A stretch of 64,000 nucleotides of DNA from an uncultured Acidobacteriota bacterium (GTDB taxonomy: Bacteria; Acidobacteriota; Terriglobia; Terriglobales; Acidobacteriaceae), in NCBI GenBank assembly GCA_963716405.1, contig CAVQTI010000014.1, forward strand, positions 350,885-414,884, read 5' to 3'. Below are positions 11,092 to 62,908 of the stretch, one piece after another (positions within the stretch are counted from its first letter, which is position 1; each line of letters opens with the position of its first letter). The notes under the pieces are model-generated. The model was not told the origin of the DNA and made no database searches. It was given only the letters and a program-made list of their open reading frames with translations. The position numbers and the translations under genes are program-made.

Positions 11092-12783
11092 TTAGTCTCT
11101 CACCCCATCCATAAACGCGCGCAACTTCCGCGAGCGCGAGGGATGGCGCAGCTTGCGCAGCGCCTTGGCTTCGATTTGGCGGATACGTTCGCGCGTCACC
11201 GCAAACGACTGGCCTACTTCTTCGAGCGTGTGCTCGCTGCCGTCTTCCAGTCCGAAGCGCATCTTGATGACTTTTTCTTCGCGTGGAGTCAGCGTACGCA
11301 GCACCTGCGAAGTCTGGTCTTTCAAGTTGACGTTGATCACGGCCTCGGCTGGCGAGACTACGGCGCGGTCTTCGATGAAGTCGCCCAGATGCGAATCTTC
11401 CTCTTCGCCAATTGGCGTTTCGAGGGAGATTGGTTCCTGCGCGATCTTCAGCACCTTGCGCACCTTGGCCACGGGAATATCCATGCGCTTGGCAATTTCT
11501 TCCGAGGTAGGCTCGCGTCCCAGTTCCTGCACCAGTTGCCGCGAAGTGCGGATCAACTTGTTGATCGTCTCGATCATGTGCACGGGGATGCGAATCGTAC
11601 GCGCCTGATCAGCAATGGCACGAGTGATCGCCTGCCGAATCCACCATGTGGCGTAAGTCGAGAACTTATAGCCGCGGCGGTATTCGAATTTGTCGACGGC
11701 TTTCATCAGGCCGATGTTGCCTTCCTGAATCAGATCCAAGAACTGCAAGCCGCGGTTGGTGTACTTTTTGGCAATCGAAACTACCAGTCGGAGATTGGCC
11801 TCAATCAGCTCTCGCTTGGCCTGCTCCGCATCCATGTCCCCCTGGATGATCTCGCGCTGCGTGCGCTTGAGCTCCTGGAACGAGACTCCAGCCTCGACTT
11901 CAAGCTTCTCCAGTTCGGTGCGGATGGCACGCGACTGGCGGCGGTATTCCTTGCGCTGGTCTTCACTCCGGGTCGCGTCGGCTTTTTTTTCCAGATTCGT
12001 CGACTGACGGTCAAGCGACCGCATCATGTCGACCGTCTTGTTGGCTCGGTCGATGAGGCGCTTGCGCTCGTTGTTGGTGAAGCCCAGTTTGCGGACACAC
12101 AGCGAGACATCAACGATGGCGCGGGCCAACGCGATGCGATAACGGCGATAGTCCTTGGGACGCTTCTTCTGCGAAACCGCGGCAAACTTCTCCAGAAGTT
12201 GATTCGACTTCTTGTAGGCTTTCGCCAAGTCGTCAATCTTTCCGGTAAATTCTTTCAGCCGGTTCTGCAGAATTTCGTCAGTGATTTCCTCCTCGTCGAA
12301 GGTGACCACTTCCTTGATGGAGCGGACGCCTTTCTTGAGGTCTTCGCCCATCGCTAGTAATTCGTTGATGACGATTGGCGAACGCGAAAGAGCCTTCAGA
12401 ACGCGCAGTTGTCCGCGCTCGATGCGCTTGGCAATTTCAACTTCGCCTTCACGCGTAAGAAGCGGGACCGTTCCCATCTCGCGCAAATACATGCGGACGG
12501 GATCATTAGTTTTTTCCAGGGCGCCTGGGGTGAGATCGAGTTCGACGTCCTCGCCAACTTCATCTTCGTCAAACTTTTTATCGAGCGCAGAGGAGGGAAG
12601 CTTGGGTCCCTCCAGCACATCGATTCCCTGCGTACCAATGGTGGTAAGCAGATCGTCCAGGTCTTCAGGAGAGTGCACATCGTGCGGGATTAACTCGTTT
12701 ACTTGGTCGTAAGTAAGGTATCCCTTTTCCTTGCCTGTATCGATCAGCTTTTTAATGTCGTCGTACTTGTCATCAAGAGCCAA
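11092..12783 (-). CDS. rpoD: RNA polymerase sigma factor RpoD (sigma-70)
   Basis: 563 aa. Region 2 reads [27 protein letters not shown], and region 4 reads [28 protein letters not shown]. Confidence 0.95.
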
Positions 12784-13004: not shown

Positions 13005-15053
13005 CTAGCGTATTTCCGGGGAGTTCGCTTGGGCGCCCGAGGCCGCTAAGGCCGGATCCATCAGGGCTCTCTTTAGCCGATCTTTTTCCCCCAGAAGGAA
13101 GCGCAGCCTTTCCGGCTCGTGTTTTTTCGCAGCTTGCAGCTCCCGCTGAACTTCGTCCATTTGGCGCTTGAATTGGATGCGGCGAAGGGCTCGGACAGCC
13201 CCCTCTAATTTTTCTGGGGAAAGTTCCTCGTTCTCTCTCATCAAAATGGCAGCCAAAAGATTGCGGTCTGCGTCGGACAACGTCAATTTCGTCACATCGA
13301 TGGTTTGCGATTCTGCGTTGAGGATGCCTTCGACTAACGATTCGGTGGCTAAACCCAGGTGCAAACGCTCATTGGTGAGAGCGAAATGGGCCTGGCGCGC
13401 GGGATCGAATTCTTCCTCGGCGCCATCACGGGCTGAGACATGTTCTTCTGAAGTCTGCATTTCGCCGGCGGAAGTTAGGGCTCGGATTAGAAGTTTTTCC
13501 GCATCGGTGACTTGAGCTTCGACCGTTGCTTTCACGCTGGCGACCGATCGGTTGGTAGCGGCATGCTTCAATTCCTGCCGCAAAACGGCAGAGTCGATGC
13601 CAAGTTTCTGCGCGATCTCATGCGCCAGTTCGTCGCGTACGATTCGGCTGGGAACACGTTGGATGTGCGGCAGCAGGTAATTCAGCGCCTTTACTTTGCC
13701 TTCGGCACTGCGAATGGGGAACTGGCTTTGGGCGCGCTCGATCAGGTAATCAAAATAACGTTGTGAATGCTTGAGTGCGTCGCCGTAGGCCGCTTTTCCT
13801 TTTTGGCGGATGAAAAGATCAGGGTCAAAGCCGGCTTCGAGGGTCAACACTTTGATCTGAAATTCTTCTTCGACTAGAAGACCCAAAGTCCGCTCCGTGG
13901 CTTTGGCACCCGCAGTATCCGGATCGAAATTTACCACCACGTTTTTGCTGAAGCGGCCGAGCAATCTGGCTTGAATTTCGGTGAAGGCGGTTCCGGAGCT
14001 GGCAATCACATTGTGAAAGCCAGCAGCGAACACCGAAATGCAATCCATCTGGCCTTCTACCAGAATTGCGTAATCCAGCTTGCGAATGGCCTCTTTGGCC
14101 TGCTCGAGATTGAACAAAACCCTCGATTTGGAATAAATCGCGGTCTCCGGCGAGTTGAGATATTTCGGTCCGGCTTTGTCGTCGGTGGAAAGCGTGCGTC
14201 CGGTGAAGGCGATTACTCGGCCGGTCTCGTTGGTGATCGGGAACACGACCCGGTTGCGAAATTTGGAATAGATGGTCGTTGGTCGCTGGTCGTCGGTCGT
14301 TGGCTTGTTCTCAACACGACCAGTCTTCTCTGCAATAATCCCCCCATCCTTGTGATCCCGAGCGGAGTCGAGGGACCTTGAGTCTTGCCGAGAGCTGGCC
14401 GTGGGCAGGGAGCCTTCTTTCCATGAGAACAGTCCGCTTGCCCGGAGCGTCTCCTCGTCGAACTGTCCCTTCAGCCGGTCTTTCAGCAAAAACCCAGAAT
14501 CCGGCGCGTAGCCAATGCGAAACGCTTTGATAACTTCCTGGCTGAGACCACGACCAGCCAGGTATTCGCGGGCGTGTGCGCCCTCAGGGCGGCGCAAACA
14601 CTCCTGAAAGAAATCTACGGCACACTCGTGGACTTCGAGCAGCACGGTGCGCAGTTTGGCTTCCTCAGCTTCTGCGGGACTGTTGAAACTGAGTTTCGGA
14701 AGTGCAATTCCTAGCTTTTGCGCCACAGCTCTGACGGCTTCCGGGAAGGTGACGTTTTCTATCTTCTGGACAAAGTCGAATACATCGCCTGTTGCACCAC
14801 ATCCGAAACAATAGAAAAACTGCTTGGTGACACTAACCGTAAACGAGGCTGTCTTCTCCTTGTGAAATGGACAAAGTCCCGAATAGTCGCGCGCCCCGGT
14901 CTGTTTCAGCTTGACGTAGTCGCCGACGACGCGAACGATATCTGCCTGCTGCTTGACGATATCTTTGAAATCGGCGGAGTCGGTCATGAGGAGGACACTA
15001 TTTTCCGTAGGAATTGTGAGGCAATGCGTGACAGAAGCAAATATAGCAGCCAC
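13005..15053 (-). CDS. dnaG: DNA primase DnaG (likely true start ATG 14987)
   Basis: Zinc ribbon CPFHKEKTASFTVSVTKQFFYCFGCGATGDVFDF, RNAP/TOPRIM core FRNRVVFPI..GRVIAFTGRTL..KYLNSPET..VEGQMD. It carries an extra segment of about 44 aa (see findings). Confidence 0.92.
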   Translation of the reverse strand: MAAIFASVTHCLTIPTENSVLLMTDSADFKDIVKQQADIVRVVGDYVKLKQTGARDYSGLCPFHKEKTASFTVSVTKQFFYCFGCGATGDVFDFVQKIENVTFPEAVRAVAQKLGIALPKLSFNSPAEAEEAKLRTVLLEVHECAVDFFQECLRRPEGAHAREYLAGRGLSQEVIKAFRIGYAPDSGFLLKDRLKGQFDEETLRASGLFSWKEGSLPTASSRQDSRSLDSARDHKDGGIIAEKTGRVENKPTTDDQRPTTIYSKFRNRVVFPITNETGRVIAFTGRTLSTDDKAGPKYLNSPETAIYSKSRVLFNLEQAKEAIRKLDYAILVEGQMDCISVFAAGFHNVIASSGTAFTEIQARLLGRFSKNVVVNFDPDTAGAKATERTLGLLVEEEFQIKVLTLEAGFDPDLFIRQKGKAAYGDALKHSQRYFDYLIERAQSQFPIRSAEGKVKALNYLLPHIQRVPSRIVRDELAHEIAQKLGIDSAVLRQELKHAATNRSVASVKATVEAQVTDAEKLLIRALTSAGEMQTSEEHVSARDGAEEEFDPARQAHFALTNERLHLGLATESLVEGILNAESQTIDVTKLTLSDADRNLLAAILMRENEELSPEKLEGAVRALRRIQFKRQMDEVQRELQAAKKHEPERLRFLLGEKDRLKRALMDPALAASGAQANSPEIR

Positions 15054-16766: not shown

Positions 16767-16791
16767 GGTCGTTGGCCGCTGCGGTCGTTGG
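16767..16791. repeat. Family D short repeat (GGTCGTTGG x2)
   Basis: GGTCGTTGGccgctgcGGTCGTTGG lies directly after the guaA stop. The same heptamer-type motif recurs inside dnaG at 14274-14303. Confidence 0.5.
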
Positions 16792-18134: not shown

Positions 18135-18351
18135 CGGTGCCGGTCTTAGCGAAAACGAAAAAGTCAGACACCGGCTACCCACTGCACACGCAAGAGCCCG
18201 TTACCGTTGCTTCCTTCCGGACCTGGCGGGGTTGGCGGGAGTGCGTCGCGCGGGACCGATGCCTGACCTGTTCGATTTTAGCATCACAATCGTACTCTTC
18301 CCTTTCTCGATGAAATCGCCAACAATGTAACGAAGTTCATGGACGTGTTGC

Positions 18352-20539: not shown

Positions 20540-20624
20540 TTCTGAAGCTCTCAGCTGTCAGCTCTCAGCTCAGCATGATGCTCTGCGGCTGAGAGCTGAA
20601 ACTGAAAGCTGATAGCCGAAAGCT
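20540..20624. repeat. Family E heptamer-tract inverted repeat between convergent genes (probable bidirectional terminator)
   Basis: GCTCTCAGCTGTCAGCTCTCAGCTCAGC faces GCTGAGAGCTGAAACTGAAAGCTGATAGC. AGCTCTCAGC and GCTGAGAGCT pair perfectly. Confidence 0.6.
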
Positions 20625-20631
20625 GCCTTCC

Positions 20632-62705: not shown

Positions 62706-62908
62706 TTGTCATCCTGAGCGAAGTTGCCCGCGCGAAGCGAGGGCAACGCAGTCGAAGGATCCCGGGAAGTCAGTTTAAGCAAAGCGCGTACAGGAGTTCG
62801 TACAATAAAAATGCCTTGCGGCGATCATCCTGGCGGAAACAGCTCAGAGGTCCTTCGACTCCGAGGCTGCCGCGCTTCGCGCGGCAGCCTTTCCGCTCAG
62901 GATGACAA
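62706..62908. repeat. Family C MITE-like element, both arms
   Basis: The left arm is TTGTCATCCTGAGCGAAG-GTTGCCCgcgcgaagcgaGGGCAAC-GCAGTCGAAGGATCC. The right arm is GGTCCTTCGACTCCGA-GGCTGCCGCGCttcGCGCGGCAGCC-TTTCCGCTCAGGATGACAA. It fills the E2-lpdA spacer. Confidence 0.85.

What the first reader, a model, noticed from the sequence alone, without database searches (positions are those of the whole stretch)
14274..14420. In-frame insertion of repeat-element sequence inside the essential primase gene dnaG
**Seen in sequence.**
- Between the conserved ...ASGLF and YSKFRNRVVFPI blocks, DnaG carries about 52 residues. From memory, E. coli DnaG has about 8 between the equivalent blocks.
- The extra DNA contains four tandem heptamers, TCGTTGG/TCGCTGG/TCGTCGG/TCGTTGG (14274-14303). 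This is the Family D motif also found after guaA at 16767-16791.
- It also contains TTGTGATCCCGAGCGGAGTCGAGGGACC (14350-14377). This matches the Family C arm TTGTCATCCTGAGCG...AGTCGAAGGATCC with the internal hairpin removed.
- The reading frame is preserved and there is no stop.

**Inference.** A MITE-like element, or its remnant, was domesticated as a linker between the zinc-binding and RNA-polymerase domains of the primase.
Basis: partly seen in the sequence, partly recalled or inferred. Interest (0 to 1): 0.6.

Follow-up and report, generated by a model that had tools for sequence, protein, structure and literature searches.

The report
Repeat-built hypervariable loop inside primase
The primase gene of this soil acidobacterium carries a 49-residue floppy surface loop whose DNA is made of the genome's own short repeats. 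The same loop is rebuilt from such repeats in 80 related species, so this is a clear but not unprecedented case of repeat DNA being read as protein inside an essential gene.

Summary
DnaG (window 13005-14987, minus strand) has 52 residues between ASGLF and YSKFRNRVVFPI. Solved primases and other Acidobacteriota have 3-10 there.

The extra DNA holds three repeat-derived pieces:
- a four-unit TCGTTGG array, one of 47 genomic copies of a 28-mer;
- a short-form copy of the hairpin repeat "family C", which has 60-190 genomic copies;
- a remnant of an AGCT-core heptamer array.

The insert splits the N-terminal subdomain of the catalytic core (Pfam DNAG_N). It is not the linker between the zinc-binding and polymerase domains.

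The insert is not private to this genome. In 80 related Terriglobales species the same loop is 14-92 residues long, and 77 of 81 loops are recognisable mosaics of heptamer arrays and REP-like units. One lineage shows a clean, recent 27-nt nested insertion.

The loop is predicted to be disordered. It evolves blind to the reading frame (dN/dS 0.94, against 0.07 for the rest of the gene). Its DNA nevertheless changes 2-5 times more slowly than flanking synonymous sites, which I cannot explain.

The same repeats sit in frame in mnmG (twice), cca and tilS, and an array is also read in frame in rsmH.

Verdict: this is a new member of a known kind (RPE-like intragenic REPs and dispersed heptanucleotide repeats). 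"Domestication" is not shown.

The parts
13005..14987 (-). dnaG (DNA primase, 660 aa), upstream of rpoD (11092-12783, minus strand)
   Evidence: One search gives the ORF. (Pfam) finds Zn_ribbon_DnaG at 7-98, DNAG_N in two stretches, Toprim at 306-392 and DnaB_bind at 412-466. Searches match solved primases, with TM-score 0.84-0.89 to the polymerase-domain structures.
14271..14417 (-). Loop-coding insert, 147 nt. It encodes residues 191-239, EGSLPTASSRQDSRSLDSARDHKDGGIIAEKTGRVENKPTTDDQRPTTI.
   Evidence: defines the loop. In one search, residues 194-235 have pLDDT below 50 and no secondary structure, while the flanks are above 90. One search gives dN/dS 0.94. Searches show that outgroups have 7-10 residues here.
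14276..14303 (+). Heptamer array (TCGTTGG)x4. In mRNA sense it is (CCAACGA)4 and encodes PTTDDQRPTT. It is a degenerate copy of the dispersed 28-mer TCGTTGGTCGTTCGTCGTTGGTCGTTGG (25 of 28 bases match).
   Evidence: The genome has 47 copies within 3 mismatches; the reversed control has 0.
14304..14349 (-). Spacer with no recognised repeat. It encodes HKDGGIIAEKTGRVENK approximately.
   Evidence: One search found no significant genomic matches. In one search the unclassified loop positions show 13 differences in 91 against L001; this class pools the spacer with the stretch upstream of family C.
14350..14377 (+). Family C repeat, short form (core GTGATCCCGAGCGGAGTCGAGGGACC). In mRNA sense it encodes RSLDSARDH.
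   Evidence: Searches show the element is conserved as DNA in relatives' dnaG loops, in the same frame in all 23 short-form copies.
14382..14404 (-). Remnant of an AGCT-core heptamer array. The mRNA sense reads CCACGGCCAGCTCTCGGCAAGAC and encodes PTASSRQD. The boundaries are approximate.
   Evidence: In one search this stretch is homologous to (CTCAGCT)n in L005 and to (CAGCCGT)n in L006 and L014 at the same position. The same unit family occurs at window 20546-20625.
62706..62908 (.). Inverted pair of long-form family C copies in an intergenic spacer. This is the reference for the family.
20546..20625 (.). Intergenic inverted pair of AGCT-core heptamer arrays, starting 15 nt after a TAA triplet that appears to end the upstream gene.

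Best explanation
The segment is repeat DNA that has lodged in a permissive surface loop of primase and is translated as a disordered peptide.

**What is shown**
- Terriglobales genomes carry families of very short, largely stop-free repeats.
  - One kind is the four-unit heptanucleotide array, such as TCGTTGG/CCAACGA. Because 7 is not a multiple of 3, an array gives the same cyclic peptide in all three frames. This unit has no stop codon in any of the six frames.
  - The other kind is the REP-like hairpin unit, 'family C'.
- These repeats normally sit just past gene ends, often as inverted pairs.
- The tip of a beta-hairpin in the N-terminal subdomain of the DnaG catalytic core was ancestrally 7-10 residues long.
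- In 81 loops from related species the repeat-built loop is present at this site and differs in length and content.
- One nested insertion is visible directly.
- The encoded peptide is predicted to be disordered and shows no constraint at the amino-acid level.
- Only frame-preserving versions are seen.

**What is inferred**
- In an ancestor of this family, such repeat DNA was copied into the DNA that encodes the hairpin tip.
- The loop has since been remodelled by array slippage, nested insertion and deletion.
- The route of the first entry was transposition, template switching or ectopic conversion.
- The primase works normally with the loop.

**What remains open**
- The repeat units inside the gene stay conserved as DNA, including synonymous positions. 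They therefore behave as members of their repeat family and are not decaying relics. Homogenisation (slippage, conversion from dispersed copies) or selection on the DNA or RNA unit could each explain this.
For: **Membership in the repeat families**
- The 28-mer has 47 copies, arrays of at least 3 units number 38, and family C has 60 strict copies. A reversed-genome control gives 0, 0 and 1.
- The order and orientation in dnaG match the intergenic composites at C4:89638 and C6:457439.

**Position in the protein**
- The insert lies inside Pfam DNAG_N.
- Residues 194-235 are predicted with pLDDT below 50, while the rest of the core superposes on solved primases at TM 0.84-0.89.

**Lineage pattern**
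- Acidobacteriota outside the family have 7-10 residues at this site. Four sampled genera of the same family have about 17-37.
- The 80 closest species have 14-92 residues, all with an intact frame.
- 77 of 81 loops carry recognisable repeat units.
- Period-7 structure is present in 36 of 81 loops and in 0 of 400 control coding segments.

**An insertion seen directly**
- L008 differs from L006 by a clean 27-nt REP-like insertion inside the CCAACGR array.
- Similar nested units occur in the non-sister lineages L058 and L078.

**No protein-level constraint**
- Loop dN/dS is 0.94, against 0.07 for the rest of the gene.
- Differences are spread evenly over codon positions in the loop (7, 8, 5), against 38, 22, 195 in the rest.

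**Generality**
- The same elements lie in frame in mnmG at two sites, in cca and in tilS, where each adds residues. An array is also read in frame in rsmH, with no net gain over the profile.
- Both mnmG sites are equally hypervariable in 29 genomes of the family.
Against: - No target-site duplication, terminal inverted repeat or transposase link was found for family C. The four Y1 transposase genes are each flanked by other repeat families. The route of entry is therefore unknown.
- The loop is not simply neutral DNA. Its per-site divergence is 2-5 times lower than flanking four-fold sites in eight species pairs. Synonymous positions inside the family C unit are conserved, while the codon just after it varies freely. 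Passive tolerance alone does not predict this.
- The loop was never lost in 80 species (minimum 14 residues). That could mean some length is needed.
- Translation of the loop is inferred only from frame conservation.
Confidence: 0.7

Rival explanations
1. The repeats in the loop act as nucleic acid. Family C and the heptamer arrays would be kept inside dnaG because the DNA or the mRNA segment does something in cis. Examples are a binding site or processing site that sets primase output relative to the downstream rpoD, or a site for a protein that recognises the repeat.
For: - Conservation is blind to the reading frame. Family C shows 9 differences in 196 aligned bases, where four-fold sites differ by 0.19-0.44.
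- Third codon positions inside the unit are conserved, and the next codon (AAN) varies freely.
- The two arms co-vary across subfamilies: TCCC/GGGA, TCCT/AGGA, TTCC/GGAA, TTCT/AGAA, TTTC/GAAA.
- Intergenic copies are enriched just past stop codons: 12 of 38 arrays, against 2.4 expected.
Against: - The loop RNA folds no better than shuffled sequence (z = +0.25).
- Rfam has no match.
- The same units sit in unrelated genes and at varying positions within the loop.
- In this window and in L001 the units are already degenerating.
Confidence: 0.12
2. Protein-level exaptation. A long, flexible, hydrophilic loop at this hairpin is now needed by the primase, for example as a spacer or a contact in the primosome. 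Selection would act on length and composition but not on sequence.
For: - The loop is retained in all 81 sequences and is never shorter than 14 residues, against 7-10 in outgroups.
- Its composition is always hydrophilic.
Against: - dN/dS is 0.94.
- Length varies 6.5-fold.
- pLDDT is below 50.
- Equally variable repeat-built loops exist in mnmG; the inserts in cca and tilS were examined in this genome only.
- Synonymous sites are conserved, which selection on the protein would not cause.
Confidence: 0.08
3. Origin in place. The CCAACGA array would have grown by replication slippage from the native hairpin codons, and would not have been inserted. Other primases read TNDQGR at this spot, and ACC-AAC-GAC-CAA already contains 1.7 units.
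For: - HMMER aligns the array-encoded TDDQRPTTIYSKFRNR with E. coli TNDQG--RSYDRFRER.
- In every loop where I saw the array, it abuts the conserved YSKFRNR block (read off the listing; not tallied).
Against: - The same unit, and even the same 28-mer variant with CGAACGA as its third unit, occurs at dozens of unrelated loci in several genomes.
- In dnaG it comes with family C in the same arrangement as the intergenic composites.
- Acidobacterial outgroups read RDQGGR, NEQGER and the like, not TNDQ.
Confidence: 0.05
4. Chance similarity or assembly artefact in a draft genome that has many frame errors.
For: Other notes on this window report frame breaks that are typical of long-read errors.
Against: - L001 comes from another assembly and has 90% identical DnaG. 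It has the same 49-residue loop with no gaps.
- Reversed-genome controls give 0-1 matches against 38-60 in the real genome.
Confidence: 0.01

Closest known systems
Rickettsia palindromic elements (RPE) and intragenic REPs (Di Nocera et al. 2013, PMC3733652; MITE review, PMC10969869)
   Same: - Short dispersed repeats are inserted in frame in housekeeping genes and read as extra peptide.
- They lie at sites compatible with the protein fold.
- Many hosts are replication, repair or tRNA/rRNA-modification genes.
- Repeats are sometimes clustered, encoding 43-82 residues, and different REPs can occupy the same site in related species (recB in Xanthomonas).
   Different: - There is no sequence relation to RPE.
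- Family C lacks the GTAG or CGTC tag and is not next to a RAYT gene here.
- The main text of Di Nocera et al. does not mention DnaG or primase; its supplementary table of intragenic REPs was not searched.
- Here one loop is a mosaic of several repeat types and is remodelled across 80 species.
Dispersed tandem heptanucleotide repeats: GGGNATC of Xanthomonas and Nostoc (Rehm et al. 2015, PMC4692102), the four-unit GGACCGG elements of Geobacter metallireducens (Aklujkar et al. 2009, PMC2700814), and the cyanobacterial STRR repeats (named from my own knowledge)
   Same: - The unit is 7 nt and there are tens of dispersed copies.
- Four units are preferred: 20 of 38 arrays here.
- The arrays are enriched close to stop codons.
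- In Geobacter the arrays are found between genes and inside them.
   Different: - The unit TCGTTGG has no GGG tracts, so the four-tract G-quadruplex rationale of Rehm et al. does not apply directly.
- Here the arrays are combined with a REP-like unit and occupy a conserved hot spot in an essential enzyme.
REP/REPIN-RAYT systems
   Same: - Family C forms inverted doublets 110-170 nt apart.
- It has conserved arms around a hairpin.
- The genome encodes four Y1 transposases, each flanked by its own REP family. One of these is of the type seen (as GAPSLSVRSLDGQGG) in relatives' DnaG loops.
   Different: - No Y1 transposase gene is flanked by family C.
- The internal hairpin differs between copies while keeping its pairing. 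That is unusual for simple copy-and-paste.

Membership tests
Bacterial DnaG primase | CHC2 zinc ribbon, catalytic core (DNAG_N plus TOPRIM) and a DnaB-binding C-terminal domain | tested here: met
   One search finds all Pfam domains above their cut-offs. Searches match solved primases. One search shows the invariant acidic TOPRIM residues are conserved (E311, D355, D357).
In-frame intragenic repeat insertion (RPE-like or intragenic REP) | The inserted DNA belongs to a multi-copy dispersed family of the same genome | tested here: met
In-frame intragenic repeat insertion (RPE-like or intragenic REP) | The insert is absent from orthologues outside the lineage | tested here: met
   Searches show 7-10 residues in 25 other acidobacterial families. 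Searches show 3-8 residues in solved primases.
In-frame intragenic repeat insertion (RPE-like or intragenic REP) | The frame is preserved, there is no stop, and the site is a surface loop with the host fold intact | tested here: met
   One search shows 81 of 81 frames intact. rest on a predicted structure only.
MITE | Terminal inverted repeats and a target-site duplication at the ends of the insert | tested here: not met
   In dnaG the two ends carry different heptamer units (TCGTTGG and an AGCT-core remnant), and no flanking duplication is visible. Intergenic composites do have inverted heptamer arrays.
REP/REPIN-RAYT system (for family C) | The repeats flank a RAYT (Y1 transposase) gene and carry a GTAG or CGTC tag | tested here: not met
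   Searches show four Y1_Tnp genes flanked by other REP families. Family C starts with GTCA.
Dispersed tandem heptanucleotide repeats | 7-nt unit in tandem, many dispersed loci, preference for four units, location near gene ends | tested here: met
   20 of 38 arrays have four units; 56 of 157 period-7 arrays are of this unit; 12 of 38 arrays lie just past a stop codon, against 2.4 expected.
G-quadruplex-forming heptamer repeats (GGGNATC type) | Four consecutive G-tracts of at least 3 G | tested here: not met
   The unit TCGTTGG has only GG.
Intein, intron or translational-bypass insert | Splicing domains or ribozyme, or no need for an open frame | tested here: not met
   One search finds no Hint or intein domain. 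One search finds no Rfam intron. All 81 loops keep the frame and lack stops, which a bypassed or spliced insert would not require.

The most novel reading that the evidence does not exclude
The repeats in the primase loop are not relics. They are members of an actively maintained nucleotide-level system. Tiny heptamer-array and hairpin units would be copied or converted between loci by an unidentified mechanism. They would use permissive loops of essential genes as safe harbours, because imprecise deletion there is lethal.

In this reading the DnaG hairpin tip just before the YDRFR motif is a preferred landing site across phyla. It is seen here in Acidobacteriota. Unchecked notes from this scan report it in several candidate-phyla-radiation genomes.
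Probability: 0.2. Interest if true: 0.75.

Novelty: new member of a known kind. Interest (0 to 1): 0.5.

Why it matters
- **A natural test of tolerance.** An essential replication enzyme tolerates 14-92 residues of arbitrary repeat-encoded peptide inside its catalytic core. The 80-species series shows how repeat DNA becomes protein sequence, and at what rate.
- **A puzzle about constraint.** The loop's DNA is conserved beyond synonymous sites while the peptide is unconstrained. Either gene conversion with dispersed copies reaches into essential genes, or these small units have a sequence-specific role. Both can be tested.
- **A practical point.** The loop and its counterparts in mnmG, cca and tilS are hypervariable markers. 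They also inflate "hypothetical" low-complexity annotations in Acidobacteriota.

Tried and rejected
- **Rfam.** A scan of the window matched only SRP RNA. Nothing matched family C or the arrays.
- **RNA fold.** The loop folds no better than shuffled sequence (z = +0.25). An mRNA-structure explanation gains no support.
- **Recent recombination tract.** I tested this as the cause of the low loop divergence and rejected it. The 25-codon windows on either side have normal third-position divergence (6-9 of 25), against 2-3 of 25 in the loop.
- **RAYT link for family C.** None of the four Y1_Tnp genes is flanked by family C or by heptamer arrays.
- **Genome-specific array variants, as a test of concerted evolution.** The result was inconclusive. 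The alternating CCAACGG/CCAACGA variant of L006 and L007 is found only at dnaG in those genomes. The CGAACGA-containing 28-mer is shared across genomes.
- **Literature.** No paper pairs Acidobacteria with 'heptanucleotide'. None pairs DnaG with in-frame repeat elements. One search was wasted by a loose term setting.
- **Survey artefacts.** The argS candidate in the ORF-spanning scan has its repeats upstream of the true start, not inside the gene. Many loose family C matches inside ORFs, such as TonB-type receptors, are pattern noise.
Full report
**Observation.**
dnaG is the minus-strand ORF 13005-14987 (660 aa from the ATG at 14987) and lies upstream of rpoD. Between ASGLF and YSKFRNRVVFPI there are 52 residues: SWK plus a 49-residue loop encoded by 14271-14417.
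- The plus strand carries TCGTTGG TCGCTGG TCGTCGG TCGTTGG at 14276-14303.
- It carries TTGTGATCCCGAGCGGAGTCGAGGGACC at 14350-14377.
- Solved primases have 3-8 residues at this place: A. aeolicus 7, S. aureus 3, and E. coli ...TNDQGRSYDRFRER.

**Where it sits in the protein.**
The zinc ribbon is residues 7-98. The insert splits Pfam DNAG_N into two stretches (profile 1-65 and 66-128), so it lies in the N-terminal subdomain of the catalytic core. It is not the linker between the zinc-binding and polymerase domains.
- An AlphaFold2 model built on 42 aligned sequences has mean pLDDT 82.
- Residues 194-235 are below 50 and have no secondary structure, while both flanks are above 90.
- The core superposes on polymerase-domain structures of S. 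aureus, E. coli, B. subtilis and M. tuberculosis at TM 0.84-0.89.

**The repeats are real families.**
The window is C14:350885-414884 of a 5.53-Mb, 22-contig genome with 55.6% G+C.
- TCGTTGG/CCAACGA arrays of at least 3 units occur 38 times. The common 28-mer TCGTTGGTCGTTCGTCGTTGGTCGTTGG occurs 47 times within 3 mismatches. A reversed-genome control has 0 of each.
- Four units is the commonest length, in 20 of 38 arrays.
- 12 of 38 arrays lie within 40 nt past the stop codon of a long ORF, against 2.4 expected.
- Many arrays form inverted pairs.
- TRF finds 157 period-7 arrays in all. Of these, 56 are of this unit, and most of the rest share an AGCT core.
- Family C has the form GTCATYCYGAGCG, then 0-70 nt, then AGTCGARGRAYC. 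It has 60 strict copies (control 1) and 190 loose copies. It includes short forms with 0-1 nt between the arms and inverted doublets.
- The arrangement (TCGTTGG)n, about 40 nt, family C, (CCAACGA)n occurs in intergenic DNA at C4:89638-89760 and C6:457439-457630. The order and orientation are the same as in dnaG.
- The left end of the dnaG loop (CCAGCTCTCGGCAAGAC) is homologous to AGCT-core arrays at the same position in relatives. The same unit family forms an intergenic inverted pair at window 20546-20625.

**Relatives.**
Record titles place the organism in Acidobacteriota, order Terriglobales, near Candidatus Sulfotelmatobacter.
- In 80 species with DnaG 64-90% identical, the segment between SGLFSWK and (M/I)YSKFRNRV is 14-92 residues and always in frame.
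- It is a mosaic of translated repeats:
  - PTTNDQRPTT, from the CCAACGA array, in 23 loops;
  - SLDSARDD or VLRSAQDD, from family C, in 39 loops;
  - PEAxSxKPEA, from AGCCNGA arrays, in 22 loops;
  - SRQPSAV, from CAGCCGT arrays, in 16 loops;
  - GAPSLSVRSLDGQGG, from another REP hairpin, in 15 loops.
- 77 of 81 loops carry a recognisable unit. Period-7 runs occur in 36 of 81 loops and in 0 of 400 control coding segments.
- L008 differs from its close relative L006 by a clean 27-nt REP-like insertion inside the array. L058 and L078 carry similar nested units.
- Outside the family the loop is 7-10 residues; the same-class genome reads SRDQGGRM. Four sampled genera of the same family have about 17-37 residues.

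**Evolutionary rates.**
The comparison is with L001, whose DnaG is 90% identical and whose loop aligns without gaps.
- The loop has dN 0.148 and dS 0.158, giving omega 0.94. The rest of the gene has dN 0.046 and dS 0.673, giving omega 0.07.
- Differences fall evenly on codon positions in the loop (7, 8, 5), against 38, 22, 195 elsewhere. Adjacent windows have normal third-position divergence, so a recombination tract is excluded.
- The loop is therefore unconstrained as protein. Its DNA nevertheless changes more slowly than neutral: 20 differences in 147 nt, where about 65 are expected (binomial P about 1e-15).
- The same holds in seven other species pairs. For example, loop divergence is 0.064-0.176 where four-fold sites differ by 0.19-0.34.
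- The family C unit is the most conserved part, with 9 differences in 196 bases pooled over pairs.
- All 23 short-form copies are in the same frame. Their synonymous third positions are conserved, and the codon after the unit (AAN) varies freely.
- The arms co-vary across subfamilies.
- I have no tested explanation for this conservation. Slippage, conversion from dispersed copies, or selection on the DNA or RNA unit are all possible. The loop RNA shows no special fold.

**Other genes.**
The same elements lie in frame in other housekeeping genes of this genome, confirmed by Pfam.
- MnmG has two inserts. The GIDA domain spans 433 residues against a 390-position profile, and GIDA_C_1st spans 154 against 96.
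- The CCA-adding enzyme has 23 extra residues, QVPRLRPNFAERSSDSARDD.
- TilS has 14 extra residues, including SSQLSAVSSQQ.
- RsmH reads a heptamer array (LVVGRSSLVVG) with no net gain over the Pfam profile, so an insertion is not shown there.
- Both MnmG sites are equally variable in 29 genomes of the family. One case (L118) is a full (TCGTTGG)n-C-(CCAACGA)n composite read as PSSVVGRSSLANSLAGCHSEERSAEESALANDPRPTTND.

**Explanation and rivals.**
- Best supported (0.7): repeat DNA entered a permissive hairpin tip, is translated as a disordered loop with no sequence-specific protein role, and is continually remodelled.
- Shown: family membership, lineage specificity, one direct insertion event, frame conservation and lack of amino-acid constraint.
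- Inferred: the entry mechanism and normal enzyme function.
- Rivals:
  - a cis-acting nucleic-acid role (0.12);
  - selection for a long flexible loop (0.08);
  - origin in place by slippage from the native TNDQ codons (0.05);
  - artefact (0.01).

**Comparison with what is known.**
- In-frame intragenic REPs and Rickettsia RPEs are well described, and many lie in replication, repair and RNA-modification genes (PMC3733652, PMC10969869).
- Dispersed heptanucleotide arrays that prefer four units and sit near stop codons are described in Xanthomonas and Nostoc (PMC4692102).
- Such arrays are also described in Geobacter metallireducens, both between and inside genes (PMC2700814).
- The main text of PMC3733652 does not mention primase. 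The library holds no paper pairing Acidobacteria with 'heptanucleotide' and none holding DnaG, primase, insertion, 'repeat element' and 'in-frame' together.
- Unchecked notes from this scan report heptamer arrays in the same DnaG hairpin in several candidate-phyla-radiation genomes. I did not test these.

**Verdict.**
This is a new member of a known kind. It is of moderate interest because of the family-wide hot spot in an essential enzyme and the unexplained nucleotide-level conservation.

**Limits.**
- The structure is predicted, not solved.
- The repeat classification of relatives' loops uses simple patterns.

Noticed in passing
G000 genome-wide, for example window 62706-62765, C7:332633-332860 and C15:168087-168294: The internal hairpin of family C differs in sequence from copy to copy but keeps its pairing, while the flanking arms are conserved. 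The arms co-vary across subfamilies (TCCC/GGGA, TCCT/AGGA, TTCC/GGAA, TTCT/AGAA, TTTC/GAAA). This suggests structural constraint or templated fold-back synthesis, not plain copying.
   Followed up: partly
G000 C4:441103-441450 (outside the window): A selD-like gene changes frame exactly at a 28-nt CCAACGA array. The upstream part ends in TGA shortly before the array, and the downstream part (VHAMTDVTGFGMIGHAREI) continues in another frame. It is either a gene broken by a 28-nt insert (not a multiple of 3) or an assembly error.
   Followed up: partly
G000 C10:96347-97064, C15:339655-340465 and C6:189625-190256 (loci L112-L114): Three of the four Y1 transposase (RAYT-like) genes are each flanked by their own REP family. 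The C10 family (GGGTGCCCCATGTCTCGC...GCGAGACATGGGA) is of the type that appears, translated as GAPSLSVRSLDGQGG, in the DnaG loops of 15 relatives.
   Followed up: partly
window 14271-14303 compared with E. coli DnaG chains 1eqn, 3b39 and 1dd9: HMMER aligns the array-encoded TDDQRPTTIYSKFRNR with the native E. coli hairpin TNDQG--RSYDRFRER. In every loop where I saw the CCAACGA array it abuts the YSKFRNR block. This is probably coincidence, but it leaves room for an origin in place or for mimicry of the native turn.
   Followed up: partly
L003 and L023: Two contigs of one metagenome-assembled genome (CAVROB010000016 and CAVROB010000011) carry dnaG copies with identical loops. This is either a duplication or redundant contigs in the bin.
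   Followed up: no
G000 C4:449671-451863 (mnmG), C14:40120-40177 (cca), C4:446516-446546 (tilS), C4:564563-564593 (rsmH): Family C and heptamer arrays add in-frame residues in three other housekeeping genes (mnmG, cca, tilS), and an array is read in frame in rsmH without net gain. All four act on tRNA or rRNA. Both mnmG sites are hypervariable across the family.
   Followed up: yes
window 18165-18262 (minus strand): Bacterial small SRP RNA (Rfam RF00169, 70.5 bits). It was the only Rfam match in the window.
   Followed up: no
G119 (the genome that holds L001): The closest relative has no strict four-unit CCAACGR array anywhere in its genome, although its dnaG loop keeps a degenerate one. The array family may be dying out in this sub-lineage.
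   Followed up: no
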